Translations under genes and position numbers: made by a program
Shown: one piece after another, positions 1 to 24,469 of the stretch
Numbering within the stretch: the first letter of the stretch is position 1
How the letters are laid out: every line of letters starts with the position of its first letter
NCBI RefSeq assembly: GCF_054482595.1
Contig: NZ_CM137008.1
DNA length: 64,000 nucleotides
Reading direction: 5' to 3' (one strand)
Notes under the pieces: model-generated
The model's input: the letters and a program-made list of their open reading frames with translations, nothing else
The model's database searches: none
What the model was told of the DNA's origin: nothing

Positions 1-645
1 AGTCCCTCCGATGATAGTTTTCGTCTGACCATCAAAGTGCGGCAATTAAGCGAAGGATTTCGTGACGAACAGTGGATTTCTGCACTGGCGGCCCCACTGC
101 TGGGCGATCTGTTGCGCGAAGTGGTATGGCCGACAGATGTGTCCACGCTGGATGTTGATGCAATGGTGGTACGCGAAACCACCCACCGTTTCAGCCGCTT
201 ATCCTTTCACCGGGCAATGGTCGGGCGACGTTTGCCGCTTCTGAAAACCGCCTCGGGCCTGACCTGGCTGGCCTTTTGCCCGGAACAAGAACGCAAGGAA
301 TTAATCGAAATGTTAGCCTCCCGCCCCGGTGATGACTATCAACTGGCACGAGAACCGTTAAAGCTGCAAGCCATTCTGGCGCGCGCGCGCAAAGAGGGTT
401 ACGGACAGAACTACCGCGGCTGGGATCAGGAGGAGAAGATCGCCTCTATCGCCGTACCGCTGCGCAGTGAACAACGGGTGATTGGCTGTTTGAATCTGGT
501 GTATATGGCGAGCGCAATGACCATCGAACAGGCAGCGGAAAAGCATCTTCCGGCACTACAACGGGTAGCAAAACAGATCGAAGAAGGGGTTGAATCGCAG
601 GCTATTCTGGTGGCCGGACGGCGAAGCGGCGTGCATTTACGCTAG
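1..645 (+). CDS. mhpR: IclR-family transcriptional regulator, C-terminal part (gene starts before the window); position and sequence consistent with MhpR
   Basis: ORF 37..645 in frame from the window edge; IclR-type effector-domain C-terminus; lies immediately upstream of the lacI region as mhpR does in E. coli. Confidence 0.6.
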   Translation, partial: SPSDDSFRLTIKVRQLSEGFRDEQWISALAAPLLGDLLREVVWPTDVSTLDVDAMVVRETTHRFSRLSFHRAMVGRRLPLLKTASGLTWLAFCPEQERKELIEMLASRPGDDYQLAREPLKLQAILARARKEGYGQNYRGWDQEEKIASIAVPLRSEQRVIGCLNLVYMASAMTIEQAAEKHLPALQRVAKQIEEGVESQAILVAGRRSGVHLR

Positions 646-759
646 TTACGCCAATGTGTAATTTGGCCCATTCTCATCGTTATTCGCCCATTTGCCCACA
701 TGCACAGTACGGGCTGCACGCTACGCTAATGACATCAATACTGTGATGTGGAGCAAATC

Positions 760-1536
760 ATGAAAATTACGCAAATTCGTAATGCCACCCAAATTATCCA
801 ATACGCTGGCAAAACATTTCTTATCGACCCGTTACTCGCGCCTAAAGGAAGTTATCCGGGTTTTGCCGGAACGGCACGCGCAGAAATCCGCAATCCAACG
901 GTAGAATTACCGTGCGATTTAACAACGTTACTCAACGTTGACGCCCTAATCGTGACTCATTTACATGAAGATCACTGGGACGAAACAGCCTCCCGCGTCG
1001 TCCCTAAAGATAAACTGATTTATGTGCAAAATGAGCAAGATGCTGAATCACTGCATAAACAAGGATTTACACATCTTACCGTACTTACCGATGAGACTAA
1101 ATTTGGCGATATTACTCTGCATAAAACGACAGGGCAGCACGGCTCCGATCGCACCTATGCCGACCCGGCGATGGCGAAGCGTTTAGGCGCAGCCTGCGGC
1201 GTTGTTTTCCAGCACCCGACAGAGAAAACGCTCTATCTGGCTGGCGATACCCTCTGGCGTGACGACGTCGAGGCTACAATGCTAACTTTCCAACCAGAAG
1301 TGGTTGTGTTGAATGCCGGATTTGCGCATGTTCTGGGGCATGGCGCGATAATTATGGGAGCAGAAGATATTCTCAAAACACATTTTACCCTGCCAGAAGC
1401 GCAAATTGTCGCGACACATATGGAGGCCGTAAACCACTGTTTGCTGACGCGTGATGCGCTCAAGGAATACGCCAGAGATAATCAAATTATCGAATTTGTG
1501 AACGTACCAGAAGATGGTGAAACGTTGACATTCTAA
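760..1536 (+). CDS. Metallo-beta-lactamase-fold hydrolase (HxHxDH motif)
   Basis: ORF 748..1536 with likely ATG at 760 after GGAG; translation contains THLHEDHWD metal-binding motif typical of MBL-fold proteins. Confidence 0.7.
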   Translation: MKITQIRNATQIIQYAGKTFLIDPLLAPKGSYPGFAGTARAEIRNPTVELPCDLTTLLNVDALIVTHLHEDHWDETASRVVPKDKLIYVQNEQDAESLHKQGFTHLTVLTDETKFGDITLHKTTGQHGSDRTYADPAMAKRLGAACGVVFQHPTEKTLYLAGDTLWRDDVEATMLTFQPEVVVLNAGFAHVLGHGAIIMGAEDILKTHFTLPEAQIVATHMEAVNHCLLTRDALKEYARDNQIIEFVNVPEDGETLTF

Positions 1537-1555
1537 TTCGGAGATAAAGAGTGTT

Positions 1556-2509
1556 ATGCGCCCGCTAACTGTTGCCATTATCGCCGTTGCCGGTTTTAGT
1601 CCTTTTCACCTTTCCGTACCGTTTATCGTATTTAGCGAAAAAATGGCGGAGAAAAAACACTTTCACGTAATTATCTGCGCTGAAAAGCCGGGAAACGTGG
1701 ACTCTGCCGATGGGTTTTCCGTAACCGCCACCCATGACTATACCGCAGTCATCCAGGCGGATATTGTGATAATTCCTTACTGGGGAACCATTACACAAAA
1801 ACCGCCACAAAAACTGCTGGAAGCCTTAACGACCGCACGGGATAACGGCGCACAGATTGTCGGGCTTTGCCTGGGCACGTTTGTGCTCGGCTATGCAGGT
1901 TTACTGAAAAATAAGCGTGCCGCCACGCACTGGGAGTTCGAGCGTGAATTTCAGGCACGTTTTCCACAAACACATCTGGATATTAACGCGTTGTACGTAG
2001 ACGATGACGGCATTATTACCTCTGCCGGTACTGCCGCGGCGCTGGATTGCTGTTTGTATATTGTTCGGCAACATTTTGGCAGCGACTATGCTAACCATAT
2101 TGCCCGACGGATGGTCGTACCGCCATATCGCACTGGCGGTCAGGCGCAGTTTATTGAGCAACCAGTGCCGAAAAATACCCATGATGAACGCATTAATCTC
2201 CTGCTGGATTACCTGCGGCAAAACATTGCGCAACAGCATGATCTCGACTCGCTGGCGCAGCGAGTAATGATGAGTCGCCGCACATTAACTCGCCATTTTA
2301 TGAAAGCGACCGGTTCGAGTATCGCCGAATGGCTTATTACTGAACGCTTACGCCGTAGCCAGGAACTGTTGGGATCCAGTCAATTGCCCGTTGAGCGGAT
2401 AGCAGCTGAGGTGGGTTTTCTCTCACCTGTGACCTGGCGTCAGCATTTTAAATCTCACTTCGGCGTCAGCCCCGCCGAATGGCGCAAAACCTTTCGCGGT
2501 ATGGCATGA
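1556..2509 (+). CDS. GlxA/FtrA-like transcriptional regulator: N-terminal DJ-1/PfpI (class I glutamine amidotransferase-like) domain + C-terminal AraC-type HTH
   Basis: 317-aa ORF, RBS GGAG upstream; GLCLGTF nucleophile-elbow-like motif in N-half, AraC-family HTH in C-half; 3' end overlaps the lacI promoter. Confidence 0.7.
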   Translation: MRPLTVAIIAVAGFSPFHLSVPFIVFSEKMAEKKHFHVIICAEKPGNVDSADGFSVTATHDYTAVIQADIVIIPYWGTITQKPPQKLLEALTTARDNGAQIVGLCLGTFVLGYAGLLKNKRAATHWEFEREFQARFPQTHLDINALYVDDDGIITSAGTAAALDCCLYIVRQHFGSDYANHIARRMVVPPYRTGGQAQFIEQPVPKNTHDERINLLLDYLRQNIAQQHDLDSLAQRVMMSRRTLTRHFMKATGSSIAEWLITERLRRSQELLGSSQLPVERIAAEVGFLSPVTWRQHFKSHFGVSPAEWRKTFRGMA

Positions 2510-2510
2510 T
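2482..2510 (+). promoter_or_regulatory. lacI promoter (-35 gcgcaa 2482-2487, 17-bp spacer, -10 catgat 2505-2510)
   Basis: Sequence cgaatggcgcaaaacctttcgcggtatggcatgatagcgcc is the well-known PlacI region; -35 is the wild-type gcgcaa (not the Iq gtgcaa). Confidence 0.7.
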
Positions 2511-2545
2511 AGCGCCCGGAAGAGAGTCAATTCAGGGTGGTGAAT

Positions 2546-3628
2546 GTGAAACCAGTAACGCTATACGATGTCGCAGAGTATGCCGGTGTCTCTTATCAGA
2601 CCGTTTCCCGCGTGGTGAATCAGGCCAGCCACGTTTCTGCGAAAACGCGGGAAAAAGTGGAAGCGGCGATGGCGGAGCTGAATTACATTCCCAACCGCGT
2701 GGCACAACAACTGGCGGGGAAACAGTCGTTGCTGATTGGCGTTGCCACCTCCAGTCTGGCCCTGCACGCGCCGTCGCAAATTGTCGCGGCGATTAAATCT
2801 CGCGCCGATCAACTGGGTGCCAGCGTGGTGGTGTCGATGGTAGAACGAAGCGGCGTCGAAGCCTGTAAAGCGGCGGTGCACAATCTTCTCGCGCAACGCG
2901 TCAGTGGGCTGATCATTAACTATCCGCTGGATGACCAGGATGCCATTGCTGTGGAAGCTGCCTGCGCTAATGTTCCGGCGTTATTTCTTGATGTCTCTGA
3001 CCAGACTCCCATCAACAGTATTATTTTCTCCCATGAAGACGGTACGCGACTGGGCGTGGAGCATCTGGTCGCATTGGGTCACCAGCAAATCGCGCTGTTA
3101 GCGGGCCCATTAAGTTCTGTCTCGGCGCGTCTGCGTCTGGCGGGCTGGCATAAATATCTCACTCGCAATCAAATTCAGCCGATAGCGGAACGGGAGGGCG
3201 ACTGGAGTGCCATGTCCGGTTTTCAACAAACCATGCAAATGCTAAATGAGGGCATCGTTCCCACTGCGATGCTGGTTGCCAACGATCAGATGGCGCTGGG
3301 CGCAATGCGCGCCATTACCGAGTCCGGGTTGCGCGTTGGTGCGGATATCTCGGTAGTGGGATACGACGATACCGAAGACAGCTCGTGTTATATCCCGCCG
3401 TTAACCACCATCAAACAGGATTTTCGCCTGCTGGGGCAAACCAGCGTGGACCGCTTGCTGCAACTCTCTCAGGGCCTGGCGGTGAAGGGCAATCAGCTTT
3501 TGCCCGTCTCTCTGGTGAAAAGAAAAACCACCCTGGCGCCCAAGACGCAAACCGCTTCTCCCCGCGCGTTGGCCGATTCATTAATGCAGCTGGCACGACA
3601 AGTTTCCCGACTGGAAAGCGGGCAGTGA
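2546..3628 (+). CDS. lacI: Lactose operon repressor LacI (360 aa, GTG start)
   Basis: Translation MKPVTLYDVAEYAGVSYQTVSRVVNQ... matches LacI; GTG start at 2546 as in E. coli. Confidence 0.97.
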   Translation: MKPVTLYDVAEYAGVSYQTVSRVVNQASHVSAKTREKVEAAMAELNYIPNRVAQQLAGKQSLLIGVATSSLALHAPSQIVAAIKSRADQLGASVVVSMVERSGVEACKAAVHNLLAQRVSGLIINYPLDDQDAIAVEAACANVPALFLDVSDQTPINSIIFSHEDGTRLGVEHLVALGHQQIALLAGPLSSVSARLRLAGWHKYLTRNQIQPIAEREGDWSAMSGFQQTMQMLNEGIVPTAMLVANDQMALGAMRAITESGLRVGADISVVGYDDTEDSSCYIPPLTTIKQDFRLLGQTSVDRLLQLSQGLAVKGNQLLPVSLVKRKTTLAPKTQTASPRALADSLMQLARQVSRLESGQ

Positions 3629-3641
3629 GCGCAACGCAATT
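3621..3641 (+). promoter_or_regulatory. lac auxiliary operator O3
   Basis: ggcagtgagcgcaacgcaatt overlapping the lacI stop codon. Confidence 0.7.
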
Positions 3642-3663
3642 AATGTGAGTCAGCTCACTCATT
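3642..3663 (+). promoter_or_regulatory. CAP (CRP) binding site of the lac promoter
   Basis: aatgtgagtcagctcactcatt; TGTGA...TCACT half-sites intact, one substitution (tcagc vs K-12 ttagc). Confidence 0.8.
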
Positions 3664-3676
3664 AGGCACCCCAGGC

Positions 3677-3706
3677 TTTACACTTTATGCGTCCGGCTCG
3701 TATGTT
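3677..3706 (+). promoter_or_regulatory. lac promoter Plac (-35 tttaca 3677-3682, 18-bp spacer, -10 tatgtt 3701-3706)
   Basis: ggctttacactttatgcgtccggctcgtatgttgtgtg, classical lacP architecture. Confidence 0.85.
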
Positions 3707-3712
3707 GTGTGA

Positions 3713-6825
<3,113 letters not shown>

Positions 6826-6831
6826 TAATAA

Positions 6832-8130
<1,299 letters not shown>

Positions 8131-23797: not shown

Positions 23798-24469
23798 ATG
23801 ATGCAGTTACTTCACTTATTTATGGATGAAATCACTATGGATCCTTTGCACGCCGTTTACCTGACCGTAGGACTGTTCGTGATTACTTTTTTTAATCCGG
23901 GAGCCAATCTCTTTGTGGTAGTACAAACCAGCCTGGCTTCCGGTCGACGCGCAGGAGTGCTGACCGGGCTGGGCGTGGCGCTGGGCGATGCATTTTATTC
24001 CGGGTTGGGTTTGTTTGGTCTTGCAACGCTAATTACGCAGTGTGAGGAGATTTTTTCGCTTATCAGAATCGTCGGCGGCGCTTATCTCTTATGGTTTGCG
24101 TGGTGCAGCATGCGCCGCCAGTCAACACCGCAAATGAGCACACTACAACAACCGATTAACGCCCCCTGGTATGTCTTTTTTCGCCGTGGATTAATTACCG
24201 ATCTCTCTAACCCTCAAACCGTTTTATTTTTTATTAGTATTTTCTCAGTAACATTAAATGCCGAAACACCAACATGGGCACGTTTAATGGCCTGGGCGGG
24301 GATTGTGCTCGCATCAATTATCTGGCGAGTTTTTCTTAGTCAGGCGTTTTCTTTGCCCGCTGTACGTCGTGCTTATGGGCGTATGCAACGCGTTGCCAGT
24401 CGGGTTATTGGTGCAATTATTGGTGTATTCGCGCTACGCCTGATTTACGAAGGGGTGACGCAGCGGTGA
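23798..24469 (+). CDS. yahN: LysE/RhtB-family amino-acid exporter YahN
   Basis: 223-aa polytopic membrane protein. Confidence 0.8.
   Translation: MMQLLHLFMDEITMDPLHAVYLTVGLFVITFFNPGANLFVVVQTSLASGRRAGVLTGLGVALGDAFYSGLGLFGLATLITQCEEIFSLIRIVGGAYLLWFAWCSMRRQSTPQMSTLQQPINAPWYVFFRRGLITDLSNPQTVLFFISIFSVTLNAETPTWARLMAWAGIVLASIIWRVFLSQAFSLPAVRRAYGRMQRVASRVIGAIIGVFALRLIYEGVTQR

What the first reader, a model, noticed from the sequence alone, without database searches (positions are those of the whole stretch)
748..2546. lacI promoter embedded in the 3' end of an upstream AraC/GlxA-type gene; two-gene module between mhpR and lacI
Between mhpR and lacI lie an MBL-fold hydrolase gene and a DJ-1/PfpI-AraC regulator gene. 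The last 10 codons of the regulator (...AEWRKTFRGMA-stop) are encoded by the same bases as the classical lacI promoter (cgaatggcgcaaaacctttcgcggtatggcatga). As I recall the K-12 map, mhpR and lacI are separated by under 100 bp, with the K-12/plasmid sequence upstream of cgaatggcgc differing (gacaccat...). If so, K-12 retains only the 3' stub of this regulator gene and its PlacI is a relic of coding sequence. In this strain lacI could also receive read-through transcription from the upstream pair.
Basis: partly seen in the sequence, partly recalled or inferred. Interest (0 to 1): 0.7.

Follow-up and report, generated by a model that had tools for sequence, protein, structure and literature searches.

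The report
lacI promoter is an ovrA gene relic
In this E. coli strain the textbook lac-repressor promoter lies inside the last ten codons of an intact regulator gene (ovrA). K-12 and most other strains keep only that 34-base gene stub after a 1.8-kb deletion, so the finding is a real but modest evolutionary footnote about known parts.

Summary
**Observation: confirmed.** Between mhpR (stop 643-645) and lacI (GTG 2546) lie two genes:
- an MBL-fold hydrolase gene, 760-1536
- a DJ-1/PfpI + AraC-HTH regulator gene, 1556-2509

The classical PlacI hexamers sit inside the regulator's last codons. The -35 GCGCAA (2482-2487) encodes W309-R310-K311. The -10 CATGAT (2505-2510) covers A317 plus the TGA stop.

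**The module is known.** It is O-island 19 of EHEC O157:H7 (z0443 + z0442/ovrA).

**Distribution in 5426 complete E. coli genomes:**

| Form | Genomes |
|---|---|
| Intact module | 435 |
| K-12-type junction (34 bp of ovrA kept) | 4223 |
| Second short junction variant | 165 |
| Independent deletion from yaiL (99 bp of ovrA kept) | 487 |

**The long form is ancestral.**
- Fourteen Citrobacter species share the order MBL-ovrA-lacI-lacZ; where the locus reaches far enough (six loci), mhpR lies upstream.
- C. sedlakii has exactly the same ovrA-stop / -10 / lacI layout.
- Orthologues that have no lacI nearby still end in ...SPxEWRKTF.

So K-12's PlacI is a relic of coding sequence, and "OI-19" is an ancestral segment that most strains lost, not an acquired island.

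**Read-through into lacI** is plausible, because no terminator was found in the 36-bp gap, but it is untested.

The searchable literature does not mention the overlap. Interest is modest.

The parts
1..645 (+). mhpR 3' part. Stop codon is TAG at 643-645; the short alleles use TGA or TAA instead.
646..759 (+). mhpR-MBL intergenic region. No consensus sigma-70 promoter and no terminator is detected. A sigmaS-type -10-like element gCTACGCTAAt lies at 721-730; calling it a promoter element is my inference.
   Evidence: Sequence; scan; fold not significant (z -1.7). Z0443 is 10-fold RpoS-dependent in EDL933 (PMC2907692). Only 45% nucleotide identity to C. sedlakii here.
760..1536 (+). MBL-fold metallo-hydrolase gene, the orthologue of z0443 in OI-19. 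It carries a THLHEDH metal-binding motif.
   Evidence: Pfam Lactamase_B_2, E 6e-11. RefSeq annotation. 99.2% amino-acid identity to O157:H7 SS52. 14-15 synonymous versus 2 nonsynonymous differences against the most divergent alleles.
1556..2509 (+). ovrA (z0442 orthologue). A GlxA/FtrA-like regulator with a DJ-1/PfpI domain and an AraC-type HTH.
   Evidence: Pfam. NCBIfam FtrA 324.6 bits, below the 425-bit cut-off. RefSeq names it 'ovrA: OI-19-encoded virulence regulator OvrA'. 99.7% amino-acid identity to O157:H7. 24-25 synonymous versus 2-4 nonsynonymous differences.
2411..2509 (+). The part of ovrA (32 codons plus stop) that survives in the 487 genomes with the yaiL-side deletion (B2-type, e.g. 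Nissle 1917, ECAMP047).
2476..2509 (+). The part of ovrA (codons E308-A317 plus stop) that survives in K-12-type genomes. The 2015C-3905-type junction keeps identity from 2473.
   Evidence: (all short matches start at query base 7 = 2476).
2482..2487 (+). PlacI -35 hexamer GCGCAA. It is formed by codons tgG CGC AAa (W309 R310 K311).
   Evidence: Sequence. Hexamer assignment follows Calos 1978 as cited in PMC7049694 and my own knowledge. Invariant in all alleles aligned.
2505..2510 (+). PlacI -10 hexamer CATGAT. It is formed by gCA TGA t, that is A317 plus the ovrA stop codon. The spacer to the -35 is 17 bp.
   Evidence: Sequence. Consistent with the NheI/A-to-C -10 mutation described in PMC7049694. 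Identical in C. sedlakii.
2510..2545 (+). 36-bp ovrA-lacI spacer, which is the lacI 5' leader. The transcription start is at about 2518 (own knowledge: Steege 1977, Calos 1978). No terminator.
2546..3628 (+). lacI.
646..2475 (.). The segment missing from K-12-type genomes (net 1824 bp). It corresponds to O-island 19, given as 1834 bp in EDL933.

Best explanation
Window 760-2509 is the two-gene unit z0443-ovrA ('O-island 19'): an MBL-fold hydrolase gene followed 19 bp later by its GlxA/FtrA-like AraC-type regulator. lacI follows ovrA after only 36 bp.

The weak constitutive lacI promoter is built from the end of the ovrA reading frame. The -35 is the Trp-Arg-Lys codons that close the AraC-type HTH domain, and the -10 spans the last Ala codon and the TGA stop.

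This layout is ancestral, because it is shared with Citrobacter. In about 90% of E. coli genomes the module was lost by deletion at least twice:
- once between the mhpR stop codon and ovrA codon 307/308 (the K-12 type)
- once from the yaiL side to ovrA codon 286 (the B2 type)

Each time the ovrA 3' end survived. I infer it was retained because it carries the lacI promoter. K-12's PlacI, and the copy on every lacI-bearing vector, is therefore a fossil of ovrA's C-terminal codons.

**Shown:** sequence identity, allele classes and counts, Citrobacter synteny, conservation of the C-terminal peptide.
**Inferred:** that PlacI fires in the long context, that selection for lacI expression explains retention of the stub, and that z0443-ovrA form one operon whose transcripts can run into lacI.
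For: - **Anatomy:**
- **K-12 short form and junction:**
- **Allele counts:** 435 long, 4223 K-12-type, 165 second short variant, 487 yaiL-type with a 99-bp remnant that PGAP annotates as a GlxA pseudogene.
- **Citrobacter synteny:** MBL 77-81%, OvrA 76-80%, LacI 80-83% and LacZ about 80% amino-acid identity in 14 species (LacI in 13; L006 has none). MhpR is found upstream in six loci.
- **C. sedlakii L014:** ...ggtatggcatga|TAGCGC...GTGAAACC, the same layout as E. coli.
- **C-terminus:** GVSPAEWRKTF is conserved in all Citrobacter, and SP(V/S)EWRKTF in Kluyvera and Erwinia, which have no lacI downstream. The HTH_18 match runs to K311.
- **Conservation peak:** bins 2441-2520 are the most conserved stretch of the module between E. 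coli and C. sedlakii, 92-95% against about 70%.
- **Hexamers:** invariant in every allele examined.
- **Not a recent import:** long alleles differ from each other by up to 2.6%, overwhelmingly at synonymous sites. There are no IS elements, integrase genes or flanking repeats, and GC is only mildly lower, 0.47-0.49.
- **Identity of the module:** OI-19/ovrA, from PMC8565820 and PMC10877973.
Against: - No other Escherichia species representative in the GTDB set shows an ovrA hit. Ancestry inside the genus therefore rests on Citrobacter synteny plus the two kinds of remnant.
- The K-12 junction contains 6-9 bases (TGACACCAT) that I could not derive from either flank. The second short variant (TAATGCCGC) differs from it by five transitions, and I found no intermediate alleles. 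Whether there were one or two short-form deletion events is unresolved.
- Extra synonymous conservation of the last 23 codons (0.62-0.90 versus about 0.48) is seen in all Citrobacter, not only where lacI abuts ovrA. It cannot be attributed to the promoter alone.
- Promoter activity in the long context was not measured here, and the consensus scan does not even detect PlacI because the promoter is weak.
Confidence: 0.9

Rival explanations
1. The short K-12 form is ancestral. The MBL-ovrA module was inserted upstream of lacI in some lineages (a true acquired 'O-island'), and the ovrA reading frame happens to finish in pre-existing promoter DNA.
For: The module is called an O-island, and reviews treat such islands as acquired foreign DNA. 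Only 8% of E. coli genomes carry it. No other Escherichia representative has it. GC is slightly below the flanks.
Against: The last 10 codons are the conserved end of the AraC HTH domain and are present in Citrobacter, Kluyvera and Erwinia orthologues. B2-type genomes keep 99 bp of ovrA although they lack the module. Citrobacter shares the synteny. There are no mobility genes or flanking repeats.
Confidence: 0.04
2. In long-form strains lacI is mainly expressed as the third gene of a z0443-ovrA-lacI transcript, driven by an RpoS-dependent upstream promoter or by mhpR read-through. The embedded PlacI contributes little or is occluded.
For: No intrinsic terminator is predicted on the + strand between mhpR, z0443, ovrA and lacI. 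The gaps are 19 and 36 bp. Z0443 and Z0442 are 10- and 6.8-fold RpoS-dependent in EDL933. A sigmaS-like -10 lies at 721-730 (my inference).
Against: In the same array the Z0442 signal is very low (log2 5.0 versus 10.0 for Z0443), and lacI is not in the RpoS-dependent list although mhpR, Z0443, Z0442 and lacZ are. The PlacI hexamers are invariant in long alleles and in C. sedlakii, which argues that the promoter is used.
Confidence: 0.25
3. The stub was retained passively. Deletion endpoints simply fell upstream of lacI, and the stub is not needed for lacI expression.
For: Only two or three deletion events are documented, so endpoint positions carry little statistical weight.
Against: The stub contains the experimentally defined -35 and -10 of PlacI (Calos 1978, via PMC7049694). 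Both hexamers are invariant across diverged short alleles, while the adjacent spacer and discriminator positions vary.
Confidence: 0.1

Closest known systems
O-island 19 (z0443 + z0442/ovrA) of EHEC O157:H7 EDL933. Primary paper: Liu B et al. 2020, J Infect Dis 221:820. Reviews: PMC8565820, PMC10877973.
   Same: Same two genes in the same place between mhpR and lacI. OvrA is 99.7% and the MBL protein 99.2% identical to O157:H7 SS52. RefSeq uses the name ovrA for this gene.
   Different: The window strain is not O157: it is 98.7-98.9% identical at nucleotide level to O157 and 100% to strain XH990. The literature presents OI-19 as a virulence-related island whose regulator activates LEE1/ler. 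It does not mention lacI or mhpR, the promoter overlap, or that the island is ancestral. The primary paper could not be read.
The lacI promoter of E. coli K-12 (Calos 1978; lacIq up-mutation in the -35).
   Same: The 70 bases from 2476 to the lacI GTG are identical to K-12.
   Different: Here the promoter lies inside an intact reading frame. In that frame the lacIq change, which I recall as GCGCAA to GTGCAA, would be R310C in OvrA. The literature available here confirms only that it is a single -35 point mutation giving 10-fold higher expression.
GlxA/FtrA-type AraC-family regulators (DJ-1/PfpI-like N-terminal domain plus two AraC HTH motifs), e.g. NCBIfam NF006902 FtrA and GbdR.
   Same: Same domain architecture. 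Best NCBIfam match is FtrA, E 6e-97. The gene is paired with a neighbouring enzyme gene in many Proteobacteria.
   Different: It scores below the FtrA equivalog cut-off (324.6 versus 425 bits), so it is not an FtrA orthologue by NCBI's criterion. Its ligand and native target are unknown.
The 'GlxA family transcriptional regulator' pseudogene that PGAP annotates upstream of lacI in B2-type genomes (e.g. ACSYBV_RS06305).
   Same: It is the same ovrA 3' remnant, so databases already implicitly record that DNA upstream of lacI derives from this gene.
   Different: It is 99 bp rather than 34 bp and comes from a different deletion, on the yaiL side. The K-12 stub is too short to be annotated.

Membership tests
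OvrA / OI-19 module | Near-identity to z0442 and z0443 of O157:H7, and a position between mhpR and lacI | tested here: met
   99.7% and 99.2% amino-acid identity to O157:H7 SS52, with the same neighbours. One nonsynonymous difference in ovrA, H35R.
OvrA / OI-19 module | Binds the LEE1 promoter motif GACATTTAATGATAATG and activates ler | not testable with these tools
   Reported for EHEC. In the window there are only two 3-mismatch matches, in lacZ at 4128 and at 24246, and none near the module.
GlxA/FtrA-type AraC regulators | DJ-1/PfpI-like N-terminal domain plus a C-terminal AraC-type double HTH | tested here: met
   DJ-1_PfpI residues 6-171 (E 3e-12); HTH_18 residues 233-311 (E 3e-19).
FtrA equivalog (NF006902) | Score at or above the curated cut-off of 425 bits | tested here: not met
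   324.6 bits.
MBL-fold metallo-hydrolases | Lactamase_B-type domain with an HxHxDH metal-binding motif | tested here: met
   Lactamase_B_2, E 6e-11. THLHEDH is visible in the translation.
Sigma-70 promoter PlacI | -35 GCGCAA, 17-bp spacer, -10 CATGAT, identical to the mapped K-12 promoter | tested here: met
   The hexamer assignment is supported and by my own knowledge of Calos 1978.
Sigma-70 promoter PlacI | Initiates transcription at about 2518 in this genomic context | not testable with these tools
   Needs 5'-end mapping in a long-form strain.
Horizontally acquired genomic island | Mobility genes, flanking repeats or a tRNA site, atypical composition, and absence from related genera at the same locus | tested here: not met
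   No integrase, IS element or flanking repeats. GC is 0.47-0.49 against 0.52-0.56 in the flanks. Syntenic in 14 Citrobacter species.
Operon read-through into lacI | No terminator between ovrA and lacI, and a transcript spanning the junction | tested here: inconclusive
   No terminator-like site and no significant structure. Existence of a spanning transcript was not tested. Array data are ambiguous.

The most novel reading that the evidence does not exclude
In the ancestral, long arrangement lacI is the distal gene of a stationary-phase (RpoS-dependent) z0443-ovrA-lacI transcription unit, with PlacI acting only as an internal basal promoter. If so, Lac repressor dosage, and therefore the lactose induction threshold, is growth-phase-coupled in about 8% of E. 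coli including O157:H7. The deletions in K-12-type and B2-type strains would have uncoupled it. A corollary is that the famously poor -35 of PlacI was originally fixed by the need to encode the conserved Trp-Arg-Lys of OvrA.
Probability: 0.25. Interest if true: 0.55.

Novelty: new member of a known kind. Interest (0 to 1): 0.4.

Why it matters
PlacI is one of the first promoters ever sequenced, and it is carried on thousands of expression vectors. Showing that it is the leftover C-terminal coding sequence of a neighbouring regulator gene explains where it came from, and why K-12's mhpR-lacI spacer looks the way it does.

The result also corrects the framing of "O-island 19". The ovrA module is an ancestral enterobacterial segment that most E. 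coli lost. It is not foreign DNA gained by EHEC. OvrA's control of LEE is therefore likely a co-option of an older local regulator of the adjacent MBL hydrolase.

In practice, lacI regulation in O157:H7 and other long-form strains cannot be assumed to equal that of K-12. None of this changes how the lac system is understood to work.

Tried and rejected
1. **LacI divergence, withdrawn.** My first tblastn suggested Citrobacter LacI was only 42-50% identical. That came from an off-by-one reading frame in my query. The correct value is 80-83%.
2. **Synonymous conservation as evidence for the promoter.** I tested whether synonymous-site conservation at the ovrA 3' end is specific to genomes where lacI abuts ovrA. 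It is elevated in all 14 Citrobacter (0.62-0.90 versus about 0.48), so it is not specific evidence.
3. **Origin of the K-12 junction filler.** GACACCAT does not occur elsewhere in the first 4000 bases of the window. The flanks share only a weak imperfect repeat, CGCC(G)AATG at 649-656 and 2474-2482. Diverse K-12-type alleles all carry TGACACCAT, and none is intermediate to the TAATGCCGC variant. The mechanism, and whether there were one or two events, is unresolved.
4. **Terminator, RNA structure and RNA family searches** around the junctions found nothing above chance.
5. **OvrA-box search** near the module found nothing.
6. **Literature searches** for any prior note of the overlap found none. 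The primary OvrA paper and Steege 1977 are not held.
7. **Other Escherichia species** could not be examined directly. The single genome-contig scan returned none among its top hits, and the cap prevents a second scan.
Full report
**What is in the sequence.** The start of the window reads as follows:
- mhpR 3' end, with stop TAG at 643-645
- a 114-bp spacer
- a 19-bp gap
- a 317-codon gene at 1556-2509
- a 36-bp gap
- lacI from GTG 2546, then Plac/lacO and lacZ

Pfam assigns Lactamase_B_2 to the first protein. It assigns DJ-1_PfpI (residues 6-171) and HTH_18 (233-311, model positions 1-79 of 80) to the second. NCBIfam's best match for the regulator is FtrA, but at 324.6 bits it is below the 425-bit equivalog cut-off.

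The regulator ends ...GVSPAEWRKTFRGMA*. The bases cgaatggcgcaaaacctttcgcggtatggcatga (2476-2509) encode its last ten codons and stop.

**The promoter overlap.** The classical lacI promoter is -35 GCGCAA, a 17-bp spacer, and -10 CATGAT. This assignment follows Calos 1978 as cited in PMC7049694. That paper's description of a PvuI site just upstream of the -35, and of an NheI site whose creation changes an A to C in the -10, fits these hexamers.
- The -35 falls at 2482-2487, which is tgG CGC AAa, codons W309-R310-K311. These lie inside the Pfam HTH_18 match.
- The -10 falls at 2505-2510, which is gCA TGA t, codon A317 plus the ovrA stop.
- The transcription start recalled from Steege 1977 and Calos 1978 would be at about 2518. 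This is my own knowledge, because the paper is not held.

A generic consensus scan does not flag this promoter because it is weak. It does flag Plac.

**Comparison with K-12 and other E. coli.** In the K-12 derivative C600, mhpR and lacI are 76 bp apart and no genes lie between them. The sequence reads ...catttacgtTGAcaccatCGAATGGCGCAAAACC..., identical to the window from 2476 onward.

Among 5426 complete E. coli genomes the alleles are distributed as follows:

| Allele | Genomes | Source |
|---|---|---|
| Both genes intact (O157:H7, O55:H7, O145:H28, some APEC and commensal strains) | 435 | |
| K-12-type junction | 4223 | |
| Second short junction of the same length...cgtTAAtgCCGCCGAATGG, identical to ovrA from 2473 | 165 | |
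| Whole mhp cluster absent; yaiL joined to the last 99 bp of ovrA (2411-2509) | 487 | |

- In the last class, PGAP annotates the remnant as a GlxA-family pseudogene "missing N-terminus". Nissle 1917 belongs to this class.
- All short-form matches to a probe covering 2470-2560 begin at exactly 2476.
- The -35 and -10 hexamers are invariant in every allele I aligned. Neighbouring spacer (2497 C/T) and discriminator positions vary.

**Which form is ancestral.** A scan of one genome per species found no other Escherichia representative with the gene. It did find orthologues at 76-80% amino-acid identity in 14 Citrobacter species.
- In these loci the order MBL-ovrA-...-lacI-lacZ is conserved, with mhpR upstream where the locus reaches it (six loci). 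One locus, L006, has no lacI. LacI is 80-83% and LacZ about 80% identical.
- C. sedlakii has exactly the E. coli layout. ovrA ends ...ggtatggcatga and is followed by TAGCGC...GTGAAACCGGTAACG, with the -10 identical and the -35 reading GCGAAA.
- Most of the other Citrobacter loci, typified by L010, carry a roughly 200-codon convergent ORF between ovrA and lacI.
- The peptide SP(A/V/S)EWRKTF closes the protein in all Citrobacter, and also in Kluyvera and Erwinia, where no lacI is nearby. These codons are therefore native coding sequence and were not recruited from a promoter.

Together with the two independent E. coli deletions that stop at different points inside ovrA, this shows that the long form is ancestral and the K-12 promoter region is a gene stub.

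Other evidence points the same way. The long alleles differ among themselves by up to 2.6%, almost entirely at synonymous sites: ovrA has 24-25 synonymous versus 2-4 nonsynonymous differences, and the MBL gene 14-15 versus 2. There are no mobility genes or flanking repeats, and GC is only slightly reduced. This is vertical inheritance under purifying selection, not a recently acquired island.

**What the module is.** It is O-island 19 of EHEC O157:H7 EDL933, made up of z0443 and z0442 (ovrA).
- OvrA is reported to bind the LEE1 promoter and activate ler. Deleting z0443 had no virulence phenotype (PMC8565820, PMC10877973).
- These reviews treat O-islands as acquired DNA and never mention lacI or mhpR.
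- A survey of lac-region flanks lists mhpR as the 5' neighbour of lacI in strain Sakai, overlooking the two genes (PMC4549013).
- I found no paper noting that PlacI lies in ovrA. The primary OvrA paper could not be read.
- The MBL-regulator pair is conserved widely. It is co-directional in Kluyvera, Erwinia, Aeromonas and Geomonas, and divergent in Marinobacter and Burkholderiales. I infer from this that OvrA's original role is local control of the hydrolase gene.

**Read-through.** No terminator-like site, significant RNA structure or Rfam family lies on the + strand between mhpR and lacI. Transcripts of the upstream genes could therefore enter lacI.

In a published EDL933 array, the WT/rpoS expression ratios are mhpR 33-fold, Z0443 10-fold, Z0442 6.8-fold and lacZ 25-fold. 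However, the Z0442 signal is very low (log2 5.0 versus 10.0 for Z0443), and lacI is not in the list (PMC2907692). A sigmaS-type -10-like element (gCTACGCTAAt, 721-730) precedes the MBL gene, but that region is poorly conserved in C. sedlakii. Calling it a promoter is my inference only. Read-through remains plausible and untested.

**Conservation of the overlap.** Between E. coli and C. sedlakii, bins 2441-2480 and 2481-2520 are 92% and 95% identical. These are the highest values in the module, which averages about 70%. Synonymous-codon identity in the last 23 codons is also raised in Citrobacter species where lacI does not abut ovrA. The signal is therefore suggestive of dual constraint but is not specific to the promoter.

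**Unresolved detail.** The K-12 junction contains TGACACCAT, which derives from neither flank. The second short variant has TAATGCCGC at the same position, differing by five transitions. I found no intermediate alleles. The three forms also use three different mhpR stop codons: TAG, TGA and TAA. Whether there was one deletion followed by local change, or two deletions at the same weak repeat, cannot be decided here.

**Verdict.** The components (OI-19/ovrA and PlacI) are known. The link between them, and the ancestral status of "OI-19", appear not to have been described in the literature I could search. It is a neat evolutionary explanation for a textbook promoter, of modest general significance.

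Noticed in passing
L084 (E. coli GF4-3, guinea fowl) 3540-7067; corresponds to the window from about 2537 onward: This strain has mhpR-MBL-ovrA and a diverged lacI leader up to about the Shine-Dalgarno sequence. The lac operon itself is replaced by an adenylate-forming enzyme / CoA-transferase / fabG cluster. This is a rare fifth arrangement: only about 5 genomes failed to cover the 2470-2560 probe.
   Followed up: partly
L010 5948-6556 (minus strand), and similarly in most of the other Citrobacter loci: A 202-aa ORF resembling a SAM-dependent methyltransferase (VDIGCGNG motif) lies convergent between ovrA and lacI. In L010 it overlaps the ovrA stop by 4 nt. In these species ovrA ends RGD*/RGV*/RGA* rather than RGMA*. 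No family search was run on it.
   Followed up: no
window 643-645; L001 1584-1586; L085 1496-1498: mhpR uses a different stop codon in each structural class: TAG (long), TGA (K-12-type) and TAA (2015C-3905-type). The deletion breakpoint therefore sits essentially at the stop codon.
   Followed up: partly
window 2497: A C/T polymorphism in the PlacI spacer is shared by long alleles (L086, L087) and short alleles (W4, WP9-S17, AVS0155). In the ovrA frame it is the synonymous third base of R314. It is either older than the deletion or recurrent.
   Followed up: no
window 721-730: gCTACGCTAAt, 30 nt upstream of the MBL start codon, resembles the extended sigmaS -10 consensus. It fits the 10-fold RpoS dependence of Z0443 in EDL933, but the region is only 45% identical in C. 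sedlakii.
   Followed up: partly
window 2323-2333 and 2473-2483: An exact 11-nt direct repeat, CGCCGAATGGC, inside ovrA. It encodes (I/P)AEW at the end of each of the two AraC HTH sub-domains, and the second copy abuts the K-12 breakpoint.
   Followed up: no
window 4128-4144 (+) and 24246-24262 (-): Two 3-mismatch matches to the published OvrA-binding motif GACATTTAATGATAATG, against 0.18 expected; 2 of 100 shuffles reach 2 matches. The first lies inside lacZ. Probably chance.
   Followed up: no
L020-L083 (loci from the genome-contig scan): The MBL-hydrolase / GlxA-type regulator pair is conserved across Gamma- and Betaproteobacteria and Geomonas. It is co-directional in some lineages and divergently transcribed in others (Marinobacter, Burkholderiales). 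This points to a regulator-target module of unknown substrate.
   Followed up: partly
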